Shown here: one piece after another, positions 1,126-42,507 of the stretch
Numbering within the stretch: position 1 is the stretch's first letter
How the letters are laid out: each line of letters opens with the position of its first letter
Origin: an uncultured Gammaproteobacteria bacterium
GTDB lineage: Bacteria > Patescibacteriota > Patescibacteriia > Patescibacteriales > UBA12465
Reading direction: 5' to 3'
Assembly (NCBI GenBank): GCA_964406935.1
Contig: CAYOTM010000001.1
Location: forward strand, 11,092-75,091
DNA length: 64,000 nt
Translations under genes and position numbers: made by a program
The notes under the pieces: model-generated
What the model was told of the DNA's origin: nothing
Databases searched by the model: none
Seen by the model: the letters and a program-made list of their open reading frames with translations, nothing else

Positions 1126-3573
1126 TTAATTTTCTAAATTATTATCCCCACCTTCTGAGTTATTCAAGGAAGAGTCGTTGTCGTCTAAATTAGTTTCTTC
1201 AGTTAAGGGAGAACTGTCAAGATTTTCTGAGTCAACTTGCTCGCCAGTCTCAATCACTGGAACCGGCTCGGGCTCTACTGGTAGAGCAGGGCCAATAATT
1301 GGATTTACTACTGATTCAGGTATTAAAGGTTCAACAATCGGTTCCTCAACTGGTGGAGTTTGACTGTCAATAATATTTTTCCATTCTAAATCAGCCGCAG
1401 AATCTGGTACAAATTTCAAACCACTAACCTCTGATAAATTATCAGCGGGGACCAAACTATTGATTCGTAAAAATTTATTAGACAGGGTATATAAATAATT
1501 ACCAATATATAAACTTCTTTTAACAGTATTATCAAAATAAGATAAACCGCGCCAAGAATCTGATCGACCATAAAGACCACCATCGGAATGATCAACCCGC
1601 CCTCTTTCCTCAAAGCGATCGTTAATAATACTAAAAACAATTGCTCCAGAAAAATCCAGGGACTGATAAAAATCGGAGCGTAGAGCTGTCGGAATGACTA
1701 ATAAATTTTTACTTAAACTAAATAAAAATGCTCGATGATCATCCAGGGCGATTGATTGACTGCCAGCTCCACCAAAAATATAAGCATCTAGTTCTCGCGG
1801 ATTATTAATATCTTGAACATCAAATAAAGACAACTTTAAACCACCCAAACGAACATTGCCATAAGGATCTAAAGTAGTATCGCGACCTAAGCCAATTAAT
1901 TTATTATCATCATAAGGATGCAAATAAGTGGAAAAACCAGGAATTTTTAATTCCCCTAAAACTTGGGGGCTTTTTGGATCACTAAGATCTAAGGCAAATA
2001 ACGGATCAATTTCTTTAAAAGTTACTAAATATCCACGGGGGCCCAAAAAGCGAACGGAATAAATTCTTTCACCCGGAGCAAGATTGCTGACTGACCCAAC
2101 AAGTTGTAGTTGATTATCTAAAATATAAACACCTGAGCTAGATTCTTGAGATTCTTGGAAGCGACTAAAACGACGATCTAGCGTTGTCGCTACTCGCAAA
2201 TGACCATTATACTCATCAAAAGAAAATTGATTTAAAACCCGACCAGGAATTTCACCACTGGCTTGGTGCTGAGACCCTTCTTTAGTGATCGCAATTTTAT
2301 GAATTAAGGTAGTTTGCCAACGATCAGCGACTTCTTGATATTTAGTTTTTAAACGCTCCTCTAGCAATTGTTCTAAACGGTAACGCTCATCACTTGATTG
2401 CTGATTAACAAAAGCTTCCAATACCTGATCAATTTTTAGTTTTTTTTCATGATTAGTTAGTAAAAAGGCGGGAGCTTGTTCAATGGCAACAATTTTTTCC
2501 TGCTCAGCCGGCGCCAAAAGAGGTGACAATACCGCAAATTTACTTTCTAAAATTAAATCATATTCGCTTAAATATTGCGTACCACTAATATAAATCGCTT
2601 CTTTAGAAACATATAAATTTTGAGCACCATTTAACAAATAAATCTGACTATCAACCGGGATTGTCTGATCTTGTAAGTTAATAATATTTAAAGAACTAAA
2701 CATTAATTGATCATAATCAATATCAAAATAAAAAACTTCCGGCGCAAAACAAGGGTTATCGCCAGTACAAGTATTGGGCAATAAACGACCCCCATCAACC
2801 AGGCGAGGAATCAAAGGCTCACCCTCAATATAATTACTATAATTATTTAAAAGCAAATAAACCTGGCCATCAATTAGGCGCGATTGGAAATAAGTACCTT
2901 CAAAGTTTAAATCGCGTAAAGTCTTGGGATTATTTTTATCGCTAATATCAAAAATTTTAAAAAAGGTATAAGGAGTTTGTCTTTTAAAGCTGCGGTAAAT
3001 ATCAGTGGCAATAATTTGCTCGTCACTGCCCATCACCGCTAAGCGGTCACCATCAATAAAAATATCAGACGGTCGTGAACGAAAAGAAATTTTTGACTCA
3101 ATTTTTAATTCTTCGGGAGGAAAGGCTTTAATAATATAAAGATCATTGTAAACTAGAGCATAAATATAGTTACCATCAGTTTTAATTAAATCAGCTTCAT
3201 CAACGCCGGCTACTTGAATATTAGTAGTAGAAAAATCTGAAGAACCTTCTTCTAGTTGTTGTTTCATGGCTGGGGCCGCCTCGCTAAAAACCATATCATC
3301 CATCATGACCATGTCGCCACGAAGATAATTCATCGCTGCCCCTTGATTAATTTTCCAAGAACTTAAAAAAGTTTGTAAGTCATTATAGTCAGTAAATTTC
3401 TGCAAACTACCATTAGGGGCCTCCAAACTAAAAATTTCCACCTCCCCAATTTGCGCTACTGGTGGTTTTGTCTCCGGCGTAATTGTCTTTGGTTTGCGAA
3501 AATTCAGCGAACAACCAGTCAGTAAAAAGGCGAGAATAAAAATCGACAAGATTAAAAATAATTTATTTTTCAT
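1126..3573 (-). CDS. large secreted lipoprotein, probable C-terminal beta-propeller, with Pro/Glu/Asp-rich low-complexity tail
   Basis: Signal peptide plus lipobox (LLTGC). 815 aa; body resembles the beta-propeller secreted-protein family (PF09826-like). C-terminus PVEPEPVPV...DDNDSSLNNSEGGDNNLEN. Confidence 0.5.
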   Translation of the reverse strand: MKNKLFLILSIFILAFLLTGCSLNFRKPKTITPETKPPVAQIGEVEIFSLEAPNGSLQKFTDYNDLQTFLSSWKINQGAAMNYLRGDMVMMDDMVFSEAAPAMKQQLEEGSSDFSTTNIQVAGVDEADLIKTDGNYIYALVYNDLYIIKAFPPEELKIESKISFRSRPSDIFIDGDRLAVMGSDEQIIATDIYRSFKRQTPYTFFKIFDISDKNNPKTLRDLNFEGTYFQSRLIDGQVYLLLNNYSNYIEGEPLIPRLVDGGRLLPNTCTGDNPCFAPEVFYFDIDYDQLMFSSLNIINLQDQTIPVDSQIYLLNGAQNLYVSKEAIYISGTQYLSEYDLILESKFAVLSPLLAPAEQEKIVAIEQAPAFLLTNHEKKLKIDQVLEAFVNQQSSDERYRLEQLLEERLKTKYQEVADRWQTTLIHKIAITKEGSQHQASGEIPGRVLNQFSFDEYNGHLRVATTLDRRFSRFQESQESSSGVYILDNQLQLVGSVSNLAPGERIYSVRFLGPRGYLVTFKEIDPLFALDLSDPKSPQVLGELKIPGFSTYLHPYDDNKLIGLGRDTTLDPYGNVRLGGLKLSLFDVQDINNPRELDAYIFGGAGSQSIALDDHRAFLFSLSKNLLVIPTALRSDFYQSLDFSGAIVFSIINDRFEERGRVDHSDGGLYGRSDSWRGLSYFDNTVKRSLYIGNYLYTLSNKFLRINSLVPADNLSEVSGLKFVPDSAADLEWKNIIDSQTPPVEEPIVEPLIPESVVNPIIGPALPVEPEPVPVIETGEQVDSENLDSSPLTEETNLDDNDSSLNNSEGGDNNLEN

Positions 3574-3635
3574 AAATTTTAAAATAGGGTTTGTTATTAT
3601 CTATTTTACCTTAAATTAACACTTTTAACAACTAA

Positions 3636-3653
3636 AACGCCAGGGGAGGCGTT
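3636..3653 (-). terminator. candidate stem-loop terminator after the wecA-queH fusion gene
   Basis: AACGCC-agggga-GGCGTT hairpin; U-run on the minus-strand transcript. Confidence 0.35.
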
Positions 3654-3684
3654 CTTTAAAAAAAATAAATTTACAGCTGAAATA

Positions 3685-5259
3685 TTAATTGTTTTTTTGA
3701 CTAAAATAACAGCCACAAAATTTTTGTAAATACCAACCCTTAGCTTTAGCAAAATTATAGGAGCGACGAAAACCATCGTTGGCTTGAAAATCAATATCAA
3801 GAAATTTAAGCTGATAATCTTGGGCTAACTGCTTGCCAATATTTTTTAAAGCCTGACTGTCTTTATAAGGACTAACCAACAAGCTACTACCAAAATAACC
3901 AAAACCCTGAGCCTTGGCTAGTTTAGCAGTTTTAGCTAAACGATCGCGATAACATAAACGGCAACGCTCCCCTCGTTCCAGATCTGCTTCATGGCCCTGG
4001 ACTAATTGTTGCCAAGGAGCCGGATCATAGGGTTCAATAATTAAATTAAAATTGTATTCATGGGCCGCCGCCTCAACCGCCTGCAAGCGCTTGTCATATT
4101 CTTCCTGAGAAACTAAATTAGGATTATAAAAATACCAAGTTAATTTAAACTCCTTATTTAATTTTTCTTTACTAAAATAACTAGCGCAGGGAGCGCAACA
4201 AATATGAAATAATAAGCTCGGTCGTTTATCAACATAATAAGAAAAATAAATAACAATCCCTAGCATTAATAAAAACAAGATTAATAAAGCTAAAATTTTC
4301 CCCTGACTTTGGAGGAATAAACCACTAATTCCAAAAAATATTGCTAGACCATAATAAAATAGAGCGGTCTGACGCTGACTAAAACCAGAGTCTAGCAGGC
4401 GATGATGAAGATGTTGACGATCAGCAAATCGCAAGGGATTTTTCCCAGCCTTTAAGCGTCGAATAATTGTCCAAGCAACATCTAAGGCGGGCAGACCAAT
4501 AATTAATAAAGTGATGGCAATCTTAGCGCCCGAAATAATCGCTAACACTCCCAAGCTATAACCAACCAGTAAAGATCCTCCGTCTCCTAAAAAAACTGAG
4601 GCTGGAAAAAAATTAAATAATAAAAATCCTAAACAGGCAGCACTAAAAATTAAAGCGGCTAAAGCAATGTCTGGTTGATAATAAGGAGTTAATAAAGTAA
4701 ATAGAAAAATGATAAACGCCCCAATTGTTCCTAGGCCGGTAACTAAGCCATCAATCCCATCTAGTAACTTAGTGGTATACATCATGCCTAGCAACCAAAT
4801 AATAATAATAGCGGAGCTTAGCCAATTAATATTCTCTAAAGAAATGACTCCACCTCCCGGATTACTCAGGCGAGCAATTTCTACCCCACCTAATAAAACA
4901 GCAATAATTGCTAACAAAGGAAAAATAATTTGCTGCCAAGGAGATAATTTAAAACGATCATCTAAAGTGCCGCCAATCATTAAAATTAAAGCCCCGATTA
5001 AAAATCCCAGCCAATGACGATAATCAAGGTCGCCAGCAATCAACTGAGGGGTCACTAAAATCAACCCAATTAAAAAAGCCAAAAAAATCGCCCAACCACC
5101 CCCCAAAGGAATCGCTTGGCGATGAATTTTTCGCTGTTTATCGGGAAAATCTAACAATTTAAAACGCAAAGCTAATTGTCGCCAAAAAACAGTAAAAATA
5201 GCAGAAACTGCTAATGTTAGGAAAAAATATAAGAGATATAGGTAATTAAACATAGGCAA
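3685..5259 (-). CDS. fusion protein: N-terminal GT4 MraY/WecA-family polyprenyl-phosphate N-acetylhexosamine-1-phosphate transferase (about aa 1-340) plus C-terminal QueH-like (DUF208, epoxyqueuosine reductase family) domain (about aa 345-524)
   Basis: N-part: about 10 TM helices with the motifs LDDRFKL, LDGIDGLVTG and VFLGDGGSL of MraY/WecA transferases. C-part: LLFHICCAPCASYF and KFCGCYFS, the two cysteine motifs of DUF208/QueH. Continuous reading frame across the junction with no internal start. Confidence 0.75.
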   Translation of the reverse strand: MPMFNYLYLLYFFLTLAVSAIFTVFWRQLALRFKLLDFPDKQRKIHRQAIPLGGGWAIFLAFLIGLILVTPQLIAGDLDYRHWLGFLIGALILMIGGTLDDRFKLSPWQQIIFPLLAIIAVLLGGVEIARLSNPGGGVISLENINWLSSAIIIIWLLGMMYTTKLLDGIDGLVTGLGTIGAFIIFLFTLLTPYYQPDIALAALIFSAACLGFLLFNFFPASVFLGDGGSLLVGYSLGVLAIISGAKIAITLLIIGLPALDVAWTIIRRLKAGKNPLRFADRQHLHHRLLDSGFSQRQTALFYYGLAIFFGISGLFLQSQGKILALLILFLLMLGIVIYFSYYVDKRPSLLFHICCAPCASYFSKEKLNKEFKLTWYFYNPNLVSQEEYDKRLQAVEAAAHEYNFNLIIEPYDPAPWQQLVQGHEADLERGERCRLCYRDRLAKTAKLAKAQGFGYFGSSLLVSPYKDSQALKNIGKQLAQDYQLKFLDIDFQANDGFRRSYNFAKAKGWYLQKFCGCYFSQKNN

Positions 5260-30839: not shown

Positions 30840-31352
30840 ATGACTGAGGACAAAACGATTAAGGATAAAAATTACCAACGCCCCAGCTGGGATGAATATT
30901 TTATTAAAATTGCTGACATGGTTGGCTCCAGGGGAACTTGCGATCGTGGACGAGCTGGCTGTGTAATTACTAAACACAAAAGAATTATCTCTACCGGCTA
31001 TGTTGGTTCGCCAGTTGGCCTCCCTCATTGTGATCAAGTCGGTCATGAAATGCATACTGTTTTACAAGAAAATGGTGAGCAATCTCGTCATTGTATTCGG
31101 ACTACTCATGCCGAGCAAAATGCTATTTGCCAAGCAGCTCGCTTTGGGATGTCTCTTGAGGGCGGGACTCTTTATTGTAAAATGACTCCCTGTTATGTCT
31201 GTGCTAAAATGATTATTAACGCTGGCATTAAACGAGTAGTCTGCGCCCAAGACTATCACGGTGGTAGTCGCAGTAAAGAAATATTTAAAGAAGCCGGTGT
31301 AGAATTTACTCAACTGTCAGCCGAGATGACTACTTATCAAGATATGAAATAA
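30840..31352 (+). CDS. dCMP deaminase (ComEB/CMP-dCMP deaminase zinc-binding family)
   Basis: HAEQNAI...[21 protein letters not shown] (H-x-E / PC-x-x-C zinc site). Confidence 0.85.
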
Positions 31353-31383
31353 AAAAAATTTCTTAATTTTATTTTTTAAATTT

Positions 31384-32199
31384 ATGAAACAATATTTAGA
31401 TTTATTAGCCGATGTTTTACATAATGGGCAAGGCAAAGATGATCGAACTGGTACAGGCACAATTAGTGTTTTTGGCCGCCAAATTCGCTGTGATTTACAA
31501 GCTGGCTTTCCGCTTTTGACCACTAAAAAGGTTCACCTTAAATCAATTATTTACGAATTATTATGGTTTTTAAAAGGTGATACCAACATTAAATACCTAA
31601 ATGACCATGGCGTTAATATTTGGAATGAATGGGCCGATGAAAATGGTGATCTGGGACCAATTTACGGGAAACAATGGACTGCCTGGGAAGGTCCAAACGG
31701 TCTAAAAATCAACCAAATTGCCGACGCAGTTAATACCCTAAAAACCAATCCTAGCTCCCGTCGAATTATTGTTAGTGGCTGGAATGTGGCTGATTTAAAA
31801 CAATTAATTGCTGGTCAAAAAACCGCTCCCCCACCTTGTCATACAATTTTTCAATTTTATGTTGATACTAACGATCGCTTATCTTGCCAATTATATCAAC
31901 GGAGTGCTGATATTTTCTTGGGAGTCCCTTTTAATATTGCCTCTTACGCCCTCCTCACGATGATGATTGCCCAAGTAACTGGCAAAAAATTAGGGGAATT
32001 TGTTCACACTTTTGGTGATTTACATATTTATAACAATCACCTGGAGCAAGTTAAAGAACAATTGAGTCGACAACCAAAAGATTTGCCCCAAATGAAAATT
32101 AATCCAGCAGTGAAAGATATTTTTGCTTTTCAGTACGAAGATTTCACTTTAGAAAACTATAATCCCGAGCCGGCGATTAAGGCGCCGATCGCTATTTAA
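31384..32199 (+). CDS. thyA: thymidylate synthase (ThyA, folate-dependent)
   Basis: [31 protein letters not shown] and [11 protein letters not shown] (active-site Cys). Confidence 0.95.
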
Positions 32200-32203
32200 T
32201 AAT

Positions 32204-32707
32204 ATGATTCCGGTTACTTTAATGATGGCGATAACCAGTGATGGTTTTATTGCCAAACACCAAGCTCATTTAGCCAATTGGACCAGCAAGGAAGACAAAC
32301 AATTATTTGTCGAAATATCCAAACAACACGGCGTAATTCTAATGGGAGAAAATACTTTTAACACTTTTAAACGGCCGCTTCCGGATAGATTAAATGTGGT
32401 TTTTAGCCGCCAAGCCAATCCGCCAGTGATTGAAAATGTTAAGTGGGTCCAGGGCGACCCAGAAAAAGTATTAAATGAGTTAGAGAAGATGGGCTATCAG
32501 TCAGCTCTTTTAGGGGGCGGTGCTCAACTTAATTCCCTGTTTTTAGAAAAAAAATTAATTAAAGAAATGATCATTACCGTTGAACCTAAATTATTTGGTC
32601 AGGGCTTATCATTATTTGCAGCTGATACAGATTTTAATTTAAAACTAATTAACCTCAAAAAAATTAATGATGATGCTTTTATGATGCACTATCAAATAAT
32701 TTACTAA
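32204..32707 (+). CDS. dihydrofolate reductase-family protein (RibD_C-like fold)
   Basis: MAITSDGFIA...VILMGENTFNTF...LLGGGAQLNSLFL; located directly after thyA. Confidence 0.55.
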   Translation: MIPVTLMMAITSDGFIAKHQAHLANWTSKEDKQLFVEISKQHGVILMGENTFNTFKRPLPDRLNVVFSRQANPPVIENVKWVQGDPEKVLNELEKMGYQSALLGGGAQLNSLFLEKKLIKEMIITVEPKLFGQGLSLFAADTDFNLKLINLKKINDDAFMMHYQIIY

Positions 32708-33270
32708 TGTCTATGAAAAAAATAATCTTTGGCTTAATTAGTGAAATGGCCGGCGGTAAAGATACTGCTAAAAAATATTTGGAAAAAAATTACCAAGCTG
32801 AGAGTTGTCGCTTTTCCTCAATTATGCGAGATATTTTGGATCGTCTTTACTTAGAACAAAGTCGTGTTAATATCCAACGTTTATCAACTAGTTTGCGTCA
32901 AACTTATGGTGAAGATATTTTAGCTAGAACCATTGCGTCTGAGGTCAATAACTTGCGAGCAAATTTGGTGGTGGTTGATGGCGTTAGACGACCAGCCGAC
33001 ATTAAATACTTAAGTGAGTTAAATAATTTTTATTTAGTAGCAATTAAAACCAGCCCCGAATTAAGATACCAAAGACTCGTTAAGCGAGCAGAAAATCCTG
33101 GTGACGCTGATAAAACTTGGGAAGGATTCTTAGCTGACCACAAAACTGAGGCTGATAAAGAAATTGCTAGCCTAATGACTAAGGCAAATTACTTTTTGGA
33201 TAATAATGGTAATTTAGCCGCTCTGTATTTACAAATTGACAAACTGATAAAAGAAGTGCAAAATAATTAA
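32707..33270 (+). CDS. deoxynucleoside monophosphate kinase (phage T4 gp1-like dNMP kinase family)
   Basis: P-loop GLISEMAGGKDT (GKDT, as T4 gp1 SGKDTT) and downstream VVVDGVRRP (D-x-R motif). Confidence 0.5.
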   Translation: MSMKKIIFGLISEMAGGKDTAKKYLEKNYQAESCRFSSIMRDILDRLYLEQSRVNIQRLSTSLRQTYGEDILARTIASEVNNLRANLVVVDGVRRPADIKYLSELNNFYLVAIKTSPELRYQRLVKRAENPGDADKTWEGFLADHKTEADKEIASLMTKANYFLDNNGNLAALYLQIDKLIKEVQNN

Positions 33271-33287
33271 CAAGAAAGTTAAATCAG

Positions 33288-33322
33288 GAGGAGCACAGTG
33301 ATCTAAATCACTGGCTCCTTTT
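33288..33322 (+). terminator. strong stem-loop plus T-run between the dNMP kinase and tmk-dut
   Basis: GGAGCACAGTGAT-ctaa-ATCACTGGCTCC (12 bp with 1 bulge) followed by TTTTAAT. Confidence 0.5.
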
Positions 33323-33335
33323 AATATCTAGGCTT

Positions 33336-34679
33336 ATGACTAATAATTTGGGGAAATTAATTGTGATTGACGGCACTGATGGCGCTGGTAAAACTACCCA
33401 GCTAAAATTATTGCGAGAAACTTTAGAGTACCAAGGCTACCAAATAGAGGAGGCTGATTTTCCCCAATATAATACCAAATCAGCTGGCTTGGTTGAAGAA
33501 TATTTGTCTGGTAAATATGGCGACTCAAAAAGTGTAACCGCCTATCAGGCTGCGATTTTTTATGCAGCTGATCGCTATGACGCTAGCTTTCAAATTAGAC
33601 AATGGCTAAAGGAAGGTAAAATTGTTTTATCTAATCGTTATGTTTCTTCGAGTCTAGGCCATCAAGGAGGAAAAATTGATAATCCCCTAGAGCGTCGTTT
33701 ATTTTTTAATTGGCTATATGATTTAGAATACAAAATTTTTAATCTCCCGCGACCCGATTTATCTTTAATTCTTTATTTAGAGCCAGAAATTGCTCAACAA
33801 TTAGCCAAAGAAAGACAGCGAGAAGACTGGAAAGGAAAAACTAAAGATATTCACGAAGACGATCTCAATCATTTGAAAAAGGCCGCTCAAATTTTCTTAG
33901 AAGTAGCCGACACTTTTCCCGACTTTCGCCTAATTCGTTGTAGTCACCACGGACAAATTTTAAGTCGCAGTGATATCCACTATTTAGTTGGCTTACAAGT
34001 AGCCAAAATTTTAAATGGTCAAAAAACAGTAGCTAAAAATAATTGGCAAGCAGTCGGTAATATCTTAATCAATAACAATGGCATGGTAAATTACGACAGT
34101 AAAATAATTGCTGTTAAAAAAAACATTGAAAATATTAATGCTCCCACAATTAATTCAACCCTTGACTTGGAAGAAGTGATCAAACAATCAAATGAGGAAC
34201 AAATTATTGAAAAACCGACCGACCAAACTATTAACCCCTCGTCAGAAAATAATTCTTTATCTTTAAAATTTGAAAAAATAGTCCCCCAAGCTAAAACGCC
34301 TGAGCGGGCTCATCCTGGTGATGCCGGTCTGGATTTATTTGCAAGTGATAATTATTCCATCCCTCCTTATGGACAGGCCTTAATTCAAACTGGCCTTAAA
34401 TTAGCAATTCCTTCGGGCTACGTTGGTCTAATTTGGGATAAAAGCGGACTCGCTAGCCAAGGTTATACTACAATGGGCGGTGTAATTGATGAAAATTATC
34501 GAGGAGAAATTAAAGTAATCTTTAAAAATTTAAGTGAAGATATTGTTAATATTCAAGCTGGCCAAAAAATTGCGCAACTCCTCATTCAAAAAGTTGAAAT
34601 CCCTGATATTATTGAAGAAAAAGTCGAAATTAATAGCCCACGAGGGGATCAAGGATTCGGCAGCAGTGGCCAATTTTAA
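33336..34679 (+). CDS. tmk-dut: bifunctional fusion protein: thymidylate kinase (about aa 1-215) plus dUTP diphosphatase (about aa 300-447)
   Basis: Tmk: LIVIDGTDGAGKTTQ, DRY, LSNRYVSSSLGHQ. An ~80-aa Asn/Ser-rich linker. Dut: AHPGDAGLDL, GLIWDKSGLASQG, IDENYRGEIKVIF, PRGDQGFGSSG. Confidence 0.85.
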   Translation: MTNNLGKLIVIDGTDGAGKTTQLKLLRETLEYQGYQIEEADFPQYNTKSAGLVEEYLSGKYGDSKSVTAYQAAIFYAADRYDASFQIRQWLKEGKIVLSNRYVSSSLGHQGGKIDNPLERRLFFNWLYDLEYKIFNLPRPDLSLILYLEPEIAQQLAKERQREDWKGKTKDIHEDDLNHLKKAAQIFLEVADTFPDFRLIRCSHHGQILSRSDIHYLVGLQVAKILNGQKTVAKNNWQAVGNILINNNGMVNYDSKIIAVKKNIENINAPTINSTLDLEEVIKQSNEEQIIEKPTDQTINPSSENNSLSLKFEKIVPQAKTPERAHPGDAGLDLFASDNYSIPPYGQALIQTGLKLAIPSGYVGLIWDKSGLASQGYTTMGGVIDENYRGEIKVIFKNLSEDIVNIQAGQKIAQLLIQKVEIPDIIEEKVEINSPRGDQGFGSSGQF

Positions 34680-34705
34680 AAGAGCTCTGAGCTAGCTCTT
34701 TTTTA
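34677..34705 (+). terminator. rho-independent terminator
   Basis: AGAGCT-ctgagct-AGCTCT followed by TTTTTT. Confidence 0.6.
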
Positions 34706-38702: not shown

Positions 38703-40487
38703 TTAATTAAGGTCTTCGTTTGGCTCAACGGTGACAGGAATCAAGCGATAAAGACCGAAGCGTCCCTGACGTAATATTAACTCAATATTAAAGCCGGCCG
38801 TTGGTAAACGTCGTTCATTTAAATAATTAAGATCAGTCTCAGGAAAAGCAAAATTATAATAATAAACCGGATAATTATGCATAATCTTCCCTAGAGATTG
38901 ATTGGTCGTTTCATGATTTAAAAGGGCCACCACTACTCGTCTTTCCGGAAATAATTGTTTATCATGATATTGAGTAACAATAATTGACCCGTCTTCGGTG
39001 GCTGCTAAAACTCGCTGAATATTATCTTTGTCCTGAAAATGATTATAATAAAGATGAGCTAAACCTTCCTCTGAACCAAAAAAGACAAACAATAAAGAAT
39101 TAAAAACTAAGGCCATGACCACTAATAATTGGAGGCCATTGCTTAAAAAAATTCTCGCTCGATCATAACGACCCAGTAAACTGGGGCGACCGAAACTACC
39201 CGATAACAAGCGAGATAAACTGAAAATTGCTAAAGAAGCCAGCGGAATCGCTAATAAATAAATGGGCAACCAATAACGAGTATAGGAATTGCCAATTGTA
39301 TAACGACTAGGGTCAGGATTATCAAAAAATTGCCAACTACCATAATAAATAACTAAAATACAGGCCAAGGTGAACCAGCTGAGCAAATAAACCAAGCGCC
39401 AACGGCTTACCTTGCGCCACCAACCAATTAAAAAGGTAATTATGCCTAGAGCAGTGGCTAAGGATAAATAAGGAAACATTACTAAAAAATAATAATAAAA
39501 CATTTTTAGCGACTGGATTGGTTGATAGCCAAAATAAAAAATATTATCCCGTAAAACTGTCCAAAATTGATCTAATTTTTCAAATTTGCCAAATAAGGCG
39601 GAGCTGACAAAAGTGCTCCCTGCTTGAGAAATTTGCTGTAAAGAAGTGTTCATTTCTGAGTAACCACCAAACAGAGGAAAATCATAAAGTAATTGATTAA
39701 AATAAGCAACTGGTAAAAAAGCGAACCCGGCACCAGCTAAAATTAAAAAAATTCTTAAACCCAGGCGACGAGCATAAAATAACCAAGCGAGAAAAAGAGT
39801 TGGTCCTAGCCAAATAATTTCTGAGGTGCGCGTAGCCACCGCTCCACCCAAAGCTAAACCAGCTAAAAATGGCCATAAAAATCCCAACCAAGTATTCGCC
39901 CTCAACCTAAGTTTAAAGAATTTTTCTTTTAGGGAATATTTAGATTGTAAACTTAATTGCAAAAAATAAGCGACGATAATTAAAAAAACAAGGAATAAAA
40001 CATTATGAAATAAACTGCGAACACTATAATAAATATAAACCGGAAAAGAAGCTAAGAGGGCGGCACTAATAACACCAATTCGTTGATTAAATAAATTTCT
40101 TACAAATAAATAAAAAAAGATAATACCGAGAGCGGCTAAGAATGGGGTAAAATAAGGAATGGCTGCTGTTCCCAGCCAACTAGCTAACTCTCCATAAAAA
40201 ACAATAATTCCTAAAAAACTAACTGGTTTCAGCCAACCATGATCACTGCGCATACTCCGGGGACGAACTACTTCTTCGGCAATCAAATTAGCCGGCTCAA
40301 AAACTGCTAGCGTTTGATTACTAGTATAATTTTTAATAAAAAAATAATTAGCCGTCTCATCAGGTGACGACCACTTAACATAATCTTCTTGATGGACCAA
40401 ATAATTAAAGCCAGCCGTAACAATAAAAAATAGACAAGCAATTAGAATAACCGTAATAATTGGCCAATTTTTCTTAAAAAATTGCAT
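38703..40487 (-). CDS. polytopic membrane protein, possible GT-C-fold (ArnT/PMT-like) glycosyltransferase
   Basis: 594 aa with about 12 TM helices and an extracytoplasmic C-terminal domain. No definitive motif. Confidence 0.4.
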   Translation of the reverse strand: MQFFKKNWPIITVILIACLFFIVTAGFNYLVHQEDYVKWSSPDETANYFFIKNYTSNQTLAVFEPANLIAEEVVRPRSMRSDHGWLKPVSFLGIIVFYGELASWLGTAAIPYFTPFLAALGIIFFYLFVRNLFNQRIGVISAALLASFPVYIYYSVRSLFHNVLFLVFLIIVAYFLQLSLQSKYSLKEKFFKLRLRANTWLGFLWPFLAGLALGGAVATRTSEIIWLGPTLFLAWLFYARRLGLRIFLILAGAGFAFLPVAYFNQLLYDFPLFGGYSEMNTSLQQISQAGSTFVSSALFGKFEKLDQFWTVLRDNIFYFGYQPIQSLKMFYYYFLVMFPYLSLATALGIITFLIGWWRKVSRWRLVYLLSWFTLACILVIYYGSWQFFDNPDPSRYTIGNSYTRYWLPIYLLAIPLASLAIFSLSRLLSGSFGRPSLLGRYDRARIFLSNGLQLLVVMALVFNSLLFVFFGSEEGLAHLYYNHFQDKDNIQRVLAATEDGSIIVTQYHDKQLFPERRVVVALLNHETTNQSLGKIMHNYPVYYYNFAFPETDLNYLNERRLPTAGFNIELILRQGRFGLYRLIPVTVEPNEDLN

Positions 40488-40572: not shown

Positions 40573-42507
40573 ATGCTTAGATTAACAAAAAAAATTCAAT
40601 CTGACCAGCTGTGGCTATTTTTATGCTGGTTTATTATTAGCGCTAGTTTAATTTATTTTTTTGATCGCCTAAATACGATTAATTTAATTTTAGCTCTGAT
40701 TATTAGTGGGGCTGGTTTAAAATTATTAAATCATTATCAACAAAAACCAACCATTCAGGAACAGGAAATACTTCCCCAGCAAGAAGTCTTGTCCGCTAAC
40801 TATCCCCATATAATTAAGAATATTTTTTTATTAATTTCTCTTAGTGCTTTAGTCGTCGCGATAATAATTTTAAATCAAGCAGCCAGTCAAGAAGCCTTAA
40901 TTTCTCCTTGGGAAGTAATCCCCAACACCTTTTTTTATTATTTTATTATCAGCGCCTGGTCGCTCCTAATTTGGTTATCTCAAAAAGAGACATCAACTAA
41001 ACTGGCAAGGGTTATGATTAGTCTTTTTTATTTTTTATGCTTAGGAGTTGCCCTAGTTATTTATCAAATCGGCTACGGCTTTGACCCATTTATTCATCAA
41101 GCCGCCAGCCAACACATTGCTGACTGGGGTTTTATTACTCCTAAAAATCCCTACTATATTGGTCAGTACAGCTTAATCTTATTAATAAATAAATTATTTG
41201 GCGGATCAATCGCTATCTTAAATAAATTTTTAGTGCCGGGGCTAGCTGCTATTATTTTACCTTGGATTACTCGCAAATGGTTGTTAAGTAATGCTAATGA
41301 CATAATATCTTCAAAGGCCATTCCCCTAACTATAATTTTAAGTTTAATCATTGGTTTTAGCCCCTTTATTGTCACCACTCCCCAAAATTTAGCCTATTTA
41401 TTTTTATTGGTAACGATTATTTTTGGTCTAAATGAGAGAACTTTAAAACTTAGTTTACTATCGGGTCTAGCAACTTTATTTATTCATCCCCTAGCTGGTA
41501 TTCCGGCTATTTTATTTATTATTTTAATACTAGGCAAAAAATATCTAAAAACTAAAAGGTTGTTGAGTGTTTGGTGGCCCTATTTAGTAGCTATTTTAAG
41601 TATTCCAATAATTCCCTTGGTTTTAAGTTGGGGGAGCGGCGCCCGCTGGCAATTTAATTTTAATGCTTGGCAAATAGTCGGTTTAAATTTTCAAAATCAA
41701 GAAAACTGGTTATTAAATATTTTATATTTCTGGGAAAAAAATTATTGGTATTTATTAATTATTCTGATTATTTTAGCTATTAGATTAATTTATCGAAAAA
41801 CAATTTGGCGCCAAGTAAAGGATTCTCTATTAATGGCGGCAGCAATGCTAGGAACAATGTTAATTAGTAAATTATTAGTTTTTAAAGATTTAATTTTCTA
41901 TGAACAAGGTGATTATACTAGCCGCCTACTAATCATTGCCCTAATTTTCACTTGGCCAGCCCTTAGTTTATTATTTTTAGAGGTGGCCAAAAAAATTCGC
42001 CAACAAGAAATGATTATTAAACTATTAATTTTACTAGCCACTAGTTTATTGCTGGCAACTAGTCTATATTTATCCTATCCTCGCCTGGATAATTATCACA
42101 ATTCTCGTGGCTATTCCTTAAGCGCTAGTGATTTAATAGCTGTTCAAACAATTGCTGACTTAACCAATAATGATTATATTGTGCTCGCCAATCAACAAGT
42201 ATCAGTCGCCGCCTTAAGCAAATTTGGTTTTAATAATTATTTTTCTAACCCCCAGGGAGAAATCTATTTTTATTCTATTCCCACTGGCGGTCCTTTATAT
42301 CAATATTATTTACGAATGGTTTATGAGGAAGCTAGTCGCAAAACCATGCTCCAAGCAATGGATTTAGTAGGGGTAGATGAAGCTTTCTTGGTAATTAATA
42401 AATATTGGTGGGCCAGTGATAAAATAATTAATGAGGCGAAAATTAGTAGTCACCGCTGGTGGAGTATTAATCAGGGAGATATTATAATATTTCAATATTT
42501 AAGATAA
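40573..42507 (+). CDS. large polytopic membrane protein, unknown function
   Basis: 644 aa with 14 or more TM helices and a C-terminal soluble domain; divergent from the 38703 gene. Confidence 0.4.
   Translation: MLRLTKKIQSDQLWLFLCWFIISASLIYFFDRLNTINLILALIISGAGLKLLNHYQQKPTIQEQEILPQQEVLSANYPHIIKNIFLLISLSALVVAIIILNQAASQEALISPWEVIPNTFFYYFIISAWSLLIWLSQKETSTKLARVMISLFYFLCLGVALVIYQIGYGFDPFIHQAASQHIADWGFITPKNPYYIGQYSLILLINKLFGGSIAILNKFLVPGLAAIILPWITRKWLLSNANDIISSKAIPLTIILSLIIGFSPFIVTTPQNLAYLFLLVTIIFGLNERTLKLSLLSGLATLFIHPLAGIPAILFIILILGKKYLKTKRLLSVWWPYLVAILSIPIIPLVLSWGSGARWQFNFNAWQIVGLNFQNQENWLLNILYFWEKNYWYLLIILIILAIRLIYRKTIWRQVKDSLLMAAAMLGTMLISKLLVFKDLIFYEQGDYTSRLLIIALIFTWPALSLLFLEVAKKIRQQEMIIKLLILLATSLLLATSLYLSYPRLDNYHNSRGYSLSASDLIAVQTIADLTNNDYIVLANQQVSVAALSKFGFNNYFSNPQGEIYFYSIPTGGPLYQYYLRMVYEEASRKTMLQAMDLVGVDEAFLVINKYWWASDKIINEAKISSHRWWSINQGDIIIFQYLR

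What the first reader, a model, noticed from the sequence alone, without database searches (positions are those of the whole stretch)
33336..34679. Thymidylate kinase fused to dUTPase in one 447-aa polypeptide
The ORF is continuous. The Tmk P-loop, DRY and lid motifs are followed by an ~80-aa Asn/Ser/Gln-rich linker and a full dUTPase with motifs 1-5 (AHPGDAGLDL ... PRGDQGFGSSG). dUTPase is an obligate trimer and Tmk a dimer, so the fusion implies a higher-order assembly coupling dUTP sanitation to dTDP synthesis. A strong hairpin with a T-run (33288-33322) sits just upstream, between the dNMP kinase and this gene.
Basis: seen in the sequence. Interest (0 to 1): 0.55.

Follow-up and report, generated by a model that had tools for sequence, protein, structure and literature searches.

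The report
Thymidylate kinase–dUTPase fusion enzyme gene
One gene in this small-genome (Patescibacteria-type) bacterium really does encode two DNA-precursor enzymes, thymidylate kinase and dUTPase, joined by a floppy linker; hundreds of related uncultured bacteria share the fusion, so it is genuine but a modest curiosity rather than a new kind of system.

Summary
Window 33336-34679 (+) is one uninterrupted 447-aa ORF. It has a thymidylate kinase domain (aa ~5-229), a dUTPase domain (aa ~306-447) and a 76-aa linker predicted to be disordered. The same gene, identical in sequence, appears in two other independent assemblies. Full-length homologues (55-63% identity, linker 34-111 aa, always in frame) number in the hundreds in Patescibacteria/Falkowbacteria metagenome genomes, so it is not an artefact. 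Catalytic motifs of both domains are conserved, with lineage-specific changes: NRY replaces DRY in Tmk, and Lys replaces Arg in dUTPase motifs 2 and 4. The gene sits in a conserved dTTP cluster: dCMP deaminase, thyA, DHFR, dNMP kinase, tmk-dut, then gatB. Related lineages carry the reverse fusion (dUTPase-Tmk), Tmk-thymidine kinase and Tmk-ThyX-like fusions, so Tmk is a recurrent fusion partner for thymidylate enzymes. The upstream hairpin is real, conserved in sequence and found only at this site. It is therefore more than a generic terminator, but its role is unknown. The dimer-plus-trimer higher-order assembly idea is plausible but untested. In the papers searched, a Tmk-dUTPase fusion is described only for baculoviruses. 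Verdict: a bacterial member of a known kind; interest about 0.3.

The parts
33336..34679 (+). tmk-dut fusion gene, 447 aa plus stop codon
   Evidence: Continuous ORF. Both Pfam domains found. Identical in two other assemblies. Full-length homologues found.
33348..34022 (+). Thymidylate kinase domain (aa ~5-229), nearest to the M. tuberculosis TMPK type. Contains P-loop 33372-33398, FPQY 33459-33470, D79-R80 33570-33575, NRY..GHQGG 33633-33671 and LID 33813-33860.
   Evidence: Pfam PF02223 84 bits. Best PDB matches 4unp/1g3u, E ~1e-17. AF2 pLDDT mostly 80-96. Invariant residues. Coordinates.
34023..34250 (+). Inter-domain linker (aa 230-305), Asn/Ile-rich and predicted disordered. Contains a semi-conserved patch [F/W]-Q-A-x-x-x-I-L at aa 237-244 (34044-34067).
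   Evidence: AF2 pLDDT <50 over aa 230-305. Linker length is 34-111 aa (median 73) across 62 homologues, and the patch is 50-81% conserved with full occupancy. Composition.
34251..34676 (+). Trimeric-type dUTPase domain (aa 306-447) with motifs 1-5: 34308-34337, 34434-34454, 34476-34508, 34560-34586, 34638-34676.
   Evidence: PF00692 113 bits and TIGR00576 124 bits, above cut-off. PDB matches include vaccinia 2okd (E 3.8e-28), Mtb 1six and human 2hqu. AF2 predicts a beta-rich domain with pLDDT ~90.
33286..33322 (+). Conserved stem-loop between the dNMP kinase gene and tmk-dut. The 5' arm is AGGAGGAG (Shine-Dalgarno-like). The 3' arm is CUCCUUUU, followed by AAUAUC.
   Evidence: Fold -22.1 kcal/mol, z -4.9. 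The pattern occurs once in 64 kb against 0.03 expected, and once in each of 12 loci at the same site. Covariance model R1 hits only this site in the window and 13 loci across 466 kb. No Rfam family matches.
30840..33270 (+). Upstream dTTP-pathway genes: dCMP deaminase 30840-31352, thyA 31384-32199, DHFR 32204-32707, and a dNMP-kinase-like P-loop kinase 32707-33270.
   Evidence: Pfam, NCBIfam and PHROG hits. The order thyA-DHFR-dNMPK-fusion-gatB-miaA is kept in most fused loci.

Best explanation
The gene encodes a genuine bifunctional enzyme of dTTP synthesis. The N-terminal domain is a thymidylate kinase (dTMP + ATP -> dTDP). The C-terminal domain is a homotrimeric-type dUTPase (dUTP -> dUMP + PPi). 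They are tethered by a disordered linker of variable length. It belongs to a Patescibacteria (Falkowbacteria-like) lineage, where it is the fifth gene of a conserved dTTP cluster: dCMP deaminase, ThyA, DHFR, a dNMP kinase, then Tmk-dUTPase. Shown here: the ORF is continuous, the fusion is conserved, both motif sets are conserved, two independently folding domains are predicted, and the synteny holds. Inferred: both domains are active. The dUTPase domain must trimerise, because active sites in this family are built from three chains and the free C-terminal motif-5 arm is retained. The fusion mainly fixes 1:1 co-expression and co-localisation of the enzymes that flank ThyA, and it does not channel a shared intermediate. 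A further inference is that tethering dUTPase to Tmk keeps dUTP low where dTDP, and any dUDP made by Tmk's side activity on dUMP, is produced. Tmk dimerisation could link dUTPase trimers into hexamers or larger assemblies, but this is untested.
For: The ORF is continuous and identical in two further independent assemblies. All 120 listed homologues are full-length with both Pfam domains, out of 976 hits. Of 33 GTDB genome loci, 26 carry the same fusion. The linker varies from 34 to 111 aa yet always stays in frame, while the flanking domains have many invariant catalytic residues. Both domains score above the Pfam cut-offs and dut scores above the NCBIfam cut-off. Aligned to Mtb TMPK, the P-loop Asp/Lys, FPxY, the stacking aromatic, the dTMP-binding Arg, the R of the DRX motif and the LID arginines are all kept. 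AF2 predicts two confident domains and a linker below pLDDT 50. The dTTP gene cluster is conserved. Relatives carry independent fusions of the same two enzymes in the reverse order, made with a different dUTPase subtype. In baculoviruses, tmk-dut fusion genes inserted into AcMNPV accelerated viral DNA replication (PMC4895240).
Against: No activity, expression or oligomer data exist for any bacterial member. The Tmk domain scores just below the NCBIfam equivalog cut-offs (TIGR00041 81 vs 83.25; PRK07933 118 vs 193). It carries Asn instead of Asp in the DRX motif. The dUTPase has Lys where most family members have Arg in motifs 2 and 4, so the kinetics or even the activity could differ. The two reactions are not consecutive, so the selective advantage of the fusion is not obvious. 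I only have 64 kb of this genome, and it holds no second tmk or dut; copies elsewhere are not excluded.
Confidence: 0.85

Rival explanations
1. Assembly or sequencing artefact: two adjacent genes, tmk and dut, were joined by a missed stop or frameshift in the low-complexity linker.
For: The linker is AT-rich and low-complexity (GC 0.31), a sequence type prone to indel errors. Some relatives do have separate tmk and dut genes (L028, L029, L030).
Against: The gene sequence is identical in three independent assemblies from different runs. More than 100 homologues from NCBI, JGI, ENA and Logan assemblies all keep one frame despite linker lengths of 34-111 aa. The other two frames of the linker are full of stops.
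Confidence: 0.01
2. A fusion in which only one domain is catalytic. The other is a degenerate, regulatory or scaffolding domain, for example a dUTPase used as a signalling or oligomerisation module, or a Tmk weakened by the NRY substitution.
For: Family-invariant departures from the usual consensus occur in both domains: N100 for the DRX Asp, and K369 and K411 for Arg in dUTPase motifs 2 and 4. Tmk scores fall below the NCBIfam equivalog cut-offs.
Against: All other catalytic and substrate-binding residues are invariant across 62 sequences in both domains. The Lys variants also occur in a stand-alone dut in L028, which shows they do not result from the fusion. The stand-alone Tmk of L028 also has NRY. 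No other tmk or dut lies in the window.
Confidence: 0.08
3. A polyprotein or dual-product gene: the linker is cleaved after translation, or an internal start gives a free dUTPase, so the enzymes work as separate proteins.
For: The linker is long, disordered and poorly conserved, so it is exposed to proteases.
Against: The only in-frame Met in the linker is M250, in NNNGMVNY, and it is not conserved (Ile in the consensus). I saw no obvious Shine-Dalgarno-like sequence or start codon just before the dUTPase domain (read). No conserved cleavage-like motif is present. The only semi-conserved patch is close to the Tmk end.
Confidence: 0.05
4. One reading: the fusion exists to build a defined higher-order complex in which dUTPase trimers are cross-linked by Tmk dimers, possibly recruiting ThyA. 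This would be a thymidylate 'metabolon' that channels flux. It is an addition to the best explanation and does not exclude it.
For: Members of the two families usually form trimers and dimers (established knowledge). The linker is at least 34 aa in all 62 aligned members, long enough for Tmk domains to pair. A semi-conserved linker patch could be a docking site. Tmk in this group is repeatedly fused to other thymidylate enzymes: dUTPase in both orders, TK, and ThyX-like domains. ThyA and DHFR lie in the same cluster.
Against: Nothing here measures oligomeric state. AF2 gives no confident contact between the domains or for the patch (pTM 0.54, linker pLDDT <50). Co-expression alone can explain the fusions.
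Confidence: 0.25

Closest known systems
Baculovirus tmk-dut fusion genes (PeluSNPV pelu112, ErelGV erel005, OpMNPV op031; PMC4895240, PMC4192325)
   Same: The two enzyme domains are the same, in one polypeptide. PMC4895240 gives the same order, Tmk at the N-terminus and trimeric-type dUTPase at the C-terminus. Both active sites appear retained. The proposed role is the same: control of the dUTP/dTTP ratio together with the dTTP supply.
   Different: Viral rather than cellular. The paper places the viral Tmk part near nudivirus and apicomplexan genes, whereas the window's Tmk is closest to the M. tuberculosis type. The fusion events are therefore probably independent, though I could not compare the sequences directly. 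The bacterial proteins have a long disordered linker and sit in a thyA-DHFR operon.
Stand-alone bacterial dUTPase (Dut, TIGR00576/PF00692) and thymidylate kinase (Tmk, PF02223; M. tuberculosis TMPK, PDB 1g3u)
   Same: Each half is an ordinary member of its family by score, motifs and predicted fold.
   Different: The two are covalently joined. The DRX motif reads NRY. Motifs 2 and 4 of the dUTPase carry Lys in place of the usual Arg.
Other fused thymidylate-pathway enzymes: bifunctional DHFR-TS of protozoa and plants, bifunctional dCTP deaminase-dUTPase (DCD-DUT), herpesvirus thymidine/thymidylate kinase (from my own knowledge)
   Same: The general principle is shared: enzymes of dTTP synthesis joined or merged in one chain.
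   Different: The partners differ. DHFR-TS joins consecutive steps and channels dihydrofolate, whereas here the joined steps are separated by ThyA. DCD-DUT is one domain with two activities, and the window protein fails that model's cut-off (TIGR02274 38.6 vs 92.8).
N-terminally extended or fused trimeric dUTPases, such as the betaretroviral nucleocapsid-dUTPase fusion (from my own knowledge)
   Same: An extra domain is attached to the dUTPase N-terminus, which leaves the C-terminal motif-5 arm free. That arrangement is compatible with trimer formation.
   Different: The attached domain there is a nucleic-acid-binding protein and not a second enzyme of the same pathway.

Membership tests
Trimeric dUTPase (PF00692 / TIGR00576) | Score above the curated family cut-offs | tested here: met
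   PF00692 113.1 bits (cut-off 22). TIGR00576 124.3 bits (cut-off 102.55). PRK00601 112.9 bits (cut-off 103).
Trimeric dUTPase (PF00692 / TIGR00576) | Five conserved motifs, including the catalytic Asp of motif 3 and the C-terminal Gly-rich motif 5 with its Arg and Phe | tested here: met
   All five motifs are present. D385, R436, G442, S443 and G445 are invariant and F441 is at least 90% conserved in 62 homologues. Motifs 2 and 4 have Lys (K369, K411) where the aligned vaccinia and Mtb enzymes have Arg.
Trimeric dUTPase (PF00692 / TIGR00576) | Homotrimer with active sites shared between chains; dUTP hydrolysis | not testable with these tools
   Only a monomer model is available. No assay was possible.
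Thymidylate kinase (PF02223 / TIGR00041) | Score above the curated family cut-offs | tested here: inconclusive
   Pfam 84 bits against a cut-off of 27: met. NCBIfam equivalog models are narrowly or clearly missed: TIGR00041 81 vs 83.25, PRK07933 118.4 vs 193.
Thymidylate kinase (PF02223 / TIGR00041) | P-loop, dTMP-binding residues, DRX motif and LID arginines | tested here: met
   Aligned to Mtb TMPK: D15=D9, K19=K13, F42/P43/Y45=F36/P37/Y39, Y76=F70, R80=R74, R101=R95, and LID R160/R162 are kept and invariant. One exception: the Asp of DRX is Asn (N100), invariant in the family.
Thymidylate kinase (PF02223 / TIGR00041) | dTMP phosphorylation; dimer | not testable with these tools
   No assay or multimer model was available.
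Tmk-dUTPase fusion proteins as described in baculoviruses | Tmk at the N-terminus and trimeric-type dUTPase at the C-terminus in one ORF | tested here: met
   Domain order. The description of pelu112 is in PMC4895240.
Tmk-dUTPase fusion proteins as described in baculoviruses | Common descent of the fusion with the viral genes | not tested
   No baculovirus sequence was available to the tools. The paper's phylogeny and the Mtb-like Tmk found here suggest independent origins.
Bifunctional dCTP deaminase-dUTPase (DCD-DUT) | Match to the dCTP deaminase model at family level | tested here: not met
   TIGR02274 38.6 bits against a cut-off of 92.8. Pfam DCD 33.8 bits against dUTPase 113 bits on the same stretch.
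Intrinsic (Rho-independent) terminator, for the hairpin 33286-33322 | Stable GC-containing stem followed directly by a U-run | tested here: inconclusive
   The stem is strong (-22.1 kcal/mol). Only four U follow, and they are themselves paired with the AGGA of the 5' arm. The scan flagged only the inner stem. In the window only 13 nt separate the hairpin from the ATG, too few to hold a promoter. tmk-dut must therefore be transcribed through the hairpin.

The most novel reading that the evidence does not exclude
In Patescibacteria, Tmk acts as the hub of a physically organised thymidylate 'metabolon'. dUTPase trimers tethered to Tmk dimers would form defined hexamers or larger networks. The semi-conserved linker patch (F/W-Q-A-x-x-x-I-L) would recruit ThyA or another partner. 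Expression would be set by the locus-specific, sequence-conserved stem-loop in the leader, which pairs a Shine-Dalgarno-like arm with an anti-Shine-Dalgarno-like arm. The parallel Tmk fusions (dUTPase-Tmk, Tmk-TK, Tmk-ThyX-like) would be alternative hard-wired versions of the same complex.
Probability: 0.12. Interest if true: 0.6.

Novelty: new member of a known kind. Interest (0 to 1): 0.32.

Why it matters
If both halves are active, these very small-genome bacteria hard-wire the enzyme that removes dUTP to the enzyme that commits dTMP to dTTP. That gives a natural test case for whether enzymes of non-consecutive steps are fused for stoichiometry, for co-localisation or for assembly. It also has a practical side. 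Current pipelines name these proteins by one half only: 'dUTP diphosphatase' at NCBI and 'dTMP kinase' at JGI. Metabolic reconstructions of Patescibacteria can therefore wrongly score tmk or dut as missing. The wider pattern of Tmk fused to dUTPase in both orders, to thymidine kinase and to ThyX-like domains has not been described in the papers I could search. It suggests selection for physical linkage of thymidylate enzymes in this phylum.

Tried and rejected
1. Artefact by frameshift: rejected on three identical independent assemblies and more than 100 in-frame homologues.
2. DCD-DUT bifunctional enzyme: rejected, because the dCTP deaminase models score far below cut-off.
3. Phage origin: no record among 50,697 phage genomes covers at least 80% of the protein, only single domains. 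An IMG/VR scan gave one weak Tmk-only hit, but it used only two Tmk-derived patterns, so it is a limited test.
4. Second tmk or dut in the window: none.
5. A downstream terminator at 34678-34704: weak (-8.8 kcal/mol, z -1.07), not significant.
6. Known RNA family for the hairpin: none at gathering threshold. The only hit is a sub-threshold chance-level match on the opposite strand.
7. Covariation support for the hairpin: none. The outer stem is invariant, so the test is uninformative (0 pairs changed on both sides; 91.6% of cells paired against 48-66% when slid).
8. Hairpin as a generic lineage terminator: rejected, because both the pattern and the covariance model hit only this one site per locus.
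9. A leader mini-ORF after the AGGAGG: the window has GTG-ATC-TAA, but it is not conserved in other loci (read).
10. A Pfam scan of all 82 long Tmk proteins at once failed on the size limit. Thirteen were scanned instead.
11. Literature searches for the bacterial fusion, for Tmk-ThyX fusions and for 'bifunctional dTMP kinase/dUTP diphosphatase' found nothing beyond baculoviruses.
Full report
**Observation**

Window 33336-34679 on the + strand is a single ATG-initiated ORF of 447 codons with no interruption. Pfam places a thymidylate kinase domain at aa 11-192 (E 1.4e-23) and a dUTPase domain at aa 319-445 (E 9.6e-33). NCBIfam's dut model scores above its curated cut-off (124.3 vs 102.55). The dTMP kinase equivalog models are missed, narrowly in one case: TIGR00041 81 vs 83.25, PRK07933 118 vs 193. 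The other two reading frames of the linker are full of stops.

**Is it an artefact?**

No.
- The identical 447-aa protein is recorded on three contigs. The 1344-nt gene is identical in two contigs assembled independently from other sequencing runs (SRR8925735, SRR8925737). The longer of these differs from the window at 6 of 5344 positions outside the gene.
- A protein search returned 976 hits. The 120 listed all cover 98-100% of the query, are 405-482 aa long, share 55-63% identity and carry both Pfam domains.
- A scan of one genome per GTDB species gave 33 loci, and 26 of them have the same Tmk-then-dUTPase ORF.
- In an alignment of 62 members the two domains are strongly conserved. The segment between them varies from 34 to 111 residues (median 73) and stays in frame.

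**Anatomy**

AlphaFold2 with this alignment predicts two confident domains: an alpha/beta kinase fold at aa 5-229 and a beta-rich dUTPase at aa 306-~430. Residues 230-305 fall below pLDDT 50. The linker is Asn-rich (19%) and Ile-rich (14%), with Ser and Gln at 6% each. Its first part holds a semi-conserved patch, [F/W]-Q-A-x-x-x-I-L at aa 237-244, 50-81% conserved and present in all 62 sequences. The rest is essentially unconserved.

No solved structure contains both domains. The dUTPase half is closest to the vaccinia, M. tuberculosis and human enzymes. The Tmk half is closest to M. tuberculosis TMPK.

**Catalytic residues: Tmk domain**

Aligned to Mtb TMPK, with family conservation:

| Window residue | Mtb TMPK residue | Note |
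|---|---|---|
| D15, K19 | D9, K13 | P-loop |
| F42-P43-x-Y45 | F36-P37-x-Y39 | FPxY |
| Y76 | F70 | stacking aromatic |
| R80 | R74 | dTMP phosphate |
| R101 | R95 | Arg of the DRX motif |
| R160, R162 | (LID) | LID arginines |

All are kept, and nearly all are invariant in the family.

- The 'DRY' at aa 79-81 is the D73-R74 site.
- The canonical DRX motif reads N100-R101-Y102 here, with Asn invariant.

**Catalytic residues: dUTPase domain**

The catalytic Asp of motif 3 (D385) and the Arg, Phe and Gly residues of motif 5 are conserved. Motifs 2 and 4 carry Lys (K369, K411) where the aligned vaccinia and Mtb enzymes have Arg. The same Lys variants and the NRY motif occur in the separate dut and tmk genes of a Magasanikbacteria genome, L028. 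They are therefore lineage traits, not signs of decay after fusion. I infer that both domains are active, but nothing here measures activity.

**Genomic context**

The gene is the last of five same-strand genes for dTTP synthesis.

| Gene | Window coordinates |
|---|---|
| dCMP deaminase | 30840-31352 |
| thyA | 31384-32199 |
| DHFR | 32204-32707 |
| dNMP-kinase-like P-loop kinase | 32707-33270 |
| tmk-dut | 33336-34679 |

These are followed by gatB and, on the opposite strand, miaA. The order thyA-DHFR-kinase-fusion-gatB-miaA is kept in most fused loci. Record titles name Falkowbacteria, 'Patescibacteria group' and Parcubacteria. Several MAGs with the same synteny are labelled Gammaproteobacteria or Bacillota, which looks like mislabelling. 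The window holds no second tmk or dut.

**Relatives without this fusion**

- L028 has separate tmk and dut genes.
- L029 and L030 have dut immediately upstream of tmk as separate genes.
- One cluster, P0134, has the reverse fusion, dUTPase-then-Tmk. It lies in a dcd, dut-tmk, thyA, DHFR, gatB cluster. Its dUTPase is the ordinary Arg-containing subtype, so this is a separate fusion event.
- L026 and P0128 have Tmk fused to a thymidine kinase instead. In a rough neighbour-joining tree this Tmk nests inside the window's Tmk-dUTPase clade.

Among the 150 best cluster representatives in an exhaustive search:

| Architecture | Count |
|---|---|
| Tmk-dUTPase | 17 |
| dUTPase-Tmk | 1 |
| Tmk-TK | 1 |
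| Stand-alone Tmk | 40 |
| Tmk with a 200-550-aa C-terminal extension | 83 |

Of the 83, Pfam found a ThyX (Thy1) domain in 6 of the 13 I scanned. Tmk in this group is thus repeatedly fused to other thymidylate-pathway enzymes.

**How it most likely works**

The dUTPase domain must form homotrimers. This follows from established knowledge of the family, and the C-terminal motif-5 arm is left free by an N-terminal fusion. It hydrolyses dUTP to dUMP, which ThyA, encoded three genes upstream (31384-32199), converts to dTMP. The Tmk domain then makes dTDP.

The fused steps flank ThyA and do not follow one another, so direct channelling of a shared intermediate is not implied. The most economical benefit is fixed 1:1 co-expression and co-localisation in a very small genome. 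A further inference concerns Tmk's side activity. Tmk enzymes can phosphorylate dUMP to some extent, and PDB 5uiv is annotated as a bifunctional thymidylate/uridylate kinase. Tethering dUTPase to Tmk would keep dUTP low where dUDP could arise.

A linker of at least 34 residues would allow Tmk pairing between trimers. It could not be tested here, and AF2 shows no confident inter-domain contact.

**The hairpin**

The stem-loop at 33286-33322 is real (-22.1 kcal/mol, z -4.9). It is not a generic terminator. Its outer stem pairs AGGAGGAG with CUC(C/U)UUUU, and that stem is conserved in sequence in the window and 13 related loci, while the inner stem varies. The pattern occurs once in the 64-kb window (0.03 expected) and once per locus, always between the kinase gene and tmk-dut. 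A covariance model finds it nowhere else in 466 kb. It is absent where the two genes abut.

Because the outer stem does not vary, covariation tests are uninformative. No Rfam family matches. In the window only 13 nt separate the hairpin from the start codon, so tmk-dut must be transcribed through it. I therefore read it as a partial terminator, a processing or stability element, or a regulatory leader. Its function is unexplained.

**Comparison with what is known**

In the library searched, a tmk-dut fusion is described only for baculoviruses (PeluSNPV pelu112, ErelGV erel005, OpMNPV op031). Inserting such genes into AcMNPV accelerated viral DNA replication and progeny production (PMC4895240; PMC4192325). 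That paper places the viral Tmk part near nudivirus and apicomplexan genes. The bacterial fusion is therefore probably independent, though I could not compare sequences directly.

No paper combining Patescibacteria terms with dUTPase or thymidylate kinase was found. None was found on Tmk-ThyX fusions either. No phage record holds the fusion. Databases already contain hundreds of these proteins, each named by one half only: 'dUTP diphosphatase' at NCBI and 'dTMP kinase' at JGI.

**Verdict**

The assembly claim is untested. The protein is an ordinary pair of enzymes in an architecture already known from viruses and already abundant, though undescribed, in Patescibacteria. I rate it as a new member of a known kind, with interest about 0.3. 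The more interesting by-products are the family of Tmk-centred fusions and the conserved, locus-specific leader hairpin.

Noticed in passing
window 33286-33322; also L001-L010, L015, L018, L025 at the matching intergenic site: The hairpin upstream of tmk-dut is conserved in sequence (AGGAGGAG ... CUCYUUUU, resembling a Shine-Dalgarno arm paired with an anti-Shine-Dalgarno-like arm). It occurs only at this one site per locus, which is unusual for a plain terminator. No Rfam family matches and its function is unknown.
   Followed up: yes
L026 5989-7326 (CAZMEQ010000001.1); protein P0128: A close relative of the window's Tmk (58% identity) is fused to a thymidine kinase (TK1-type) instead of dUTPase. 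The same locus has a separate 236-aa dCTP-deaminase-like ORF at 3267-3974.
   Followed up: partly
P0134; L036 3496-4626 and L037 5001-6131: A reverse-order fusion, dUTPase-then-Tmk (376 aa, linker of about 10 aa), lies in a dcd, dut-tmk, thyA, DHFR, gatB cluster. It uses a different, Arg-containing dUTPase subtype, so it is an independent fusion of the same two enzymes.
   Followed up: partly
Proteins P0145-P0269, e.g. P0153 (HSX16488.1, 750 aa), P0207, P0145: A large clade has Tmk at the N-terminus and a 200-550-aa C-terminal extension; it makes up 83 of the 150 best cluster representatives. Pfam sees a ThyX (Thy1) domain in 6 of the 13 scanned and nothing in the others. NCBI names one 'FAD-dependent thymidylate synthase'. 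No paper on a Tmk-ThyX fusion was found.
   Followed up: partly
Proteins P0163 (477 aa, MMETSP transcript), P0256 (434 aa), P0265 (518 aa): These are single chains with three tandem dUTPase domains, apparently a trimer built into one polypeptide.
   Followed up: no
window 30840-31352: A dCMP deaminase gene sits directly upstream of thyA. The cluster therefore encodes two routes to dUMP (dCMP deamination and dUTP hydrolysis) plus ThyA, DHFR, a dNMP kinase and Tmk.
   Followed up: yes
window 33633-33641 (N100-R101-Y102), 34440-34442 (K369), 34566-34568 (K411): There are family-invariant departures from the usual consensus: Asn for the Asp of the Tmk DRX motif, and Lys for Arg in dUTPase motifs 2 and 4. 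They are shared with the unfused genes of L028. The effect on catalysis is unknown.
   Followed up: partly
window 38703-40487 (-) and 40573-42507 (+): Two large ORFs (594 and 644 aa) have no Pfam match at E <= 0.001.
   Followed up: no
Loci L004, L006, L011-L014, L016, L020-L023, L026, L030 (labelled 'uncultured Gammaproteobacteria') and L018 (labelled 'Bacillota bacterium'): These MAG records carry the same Patescibacteria-type fusion and synteny, so their taxonomic labels look wrong.
   Followed up: no
Database names: Annotation pipelines name the fusion by one half only: 'dUTP diphosphatase' at NCBI and 'dTMP kinase' at JGI. Pathway reconstructions could therefore score the other enzyme as absent.
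   Followed up: no
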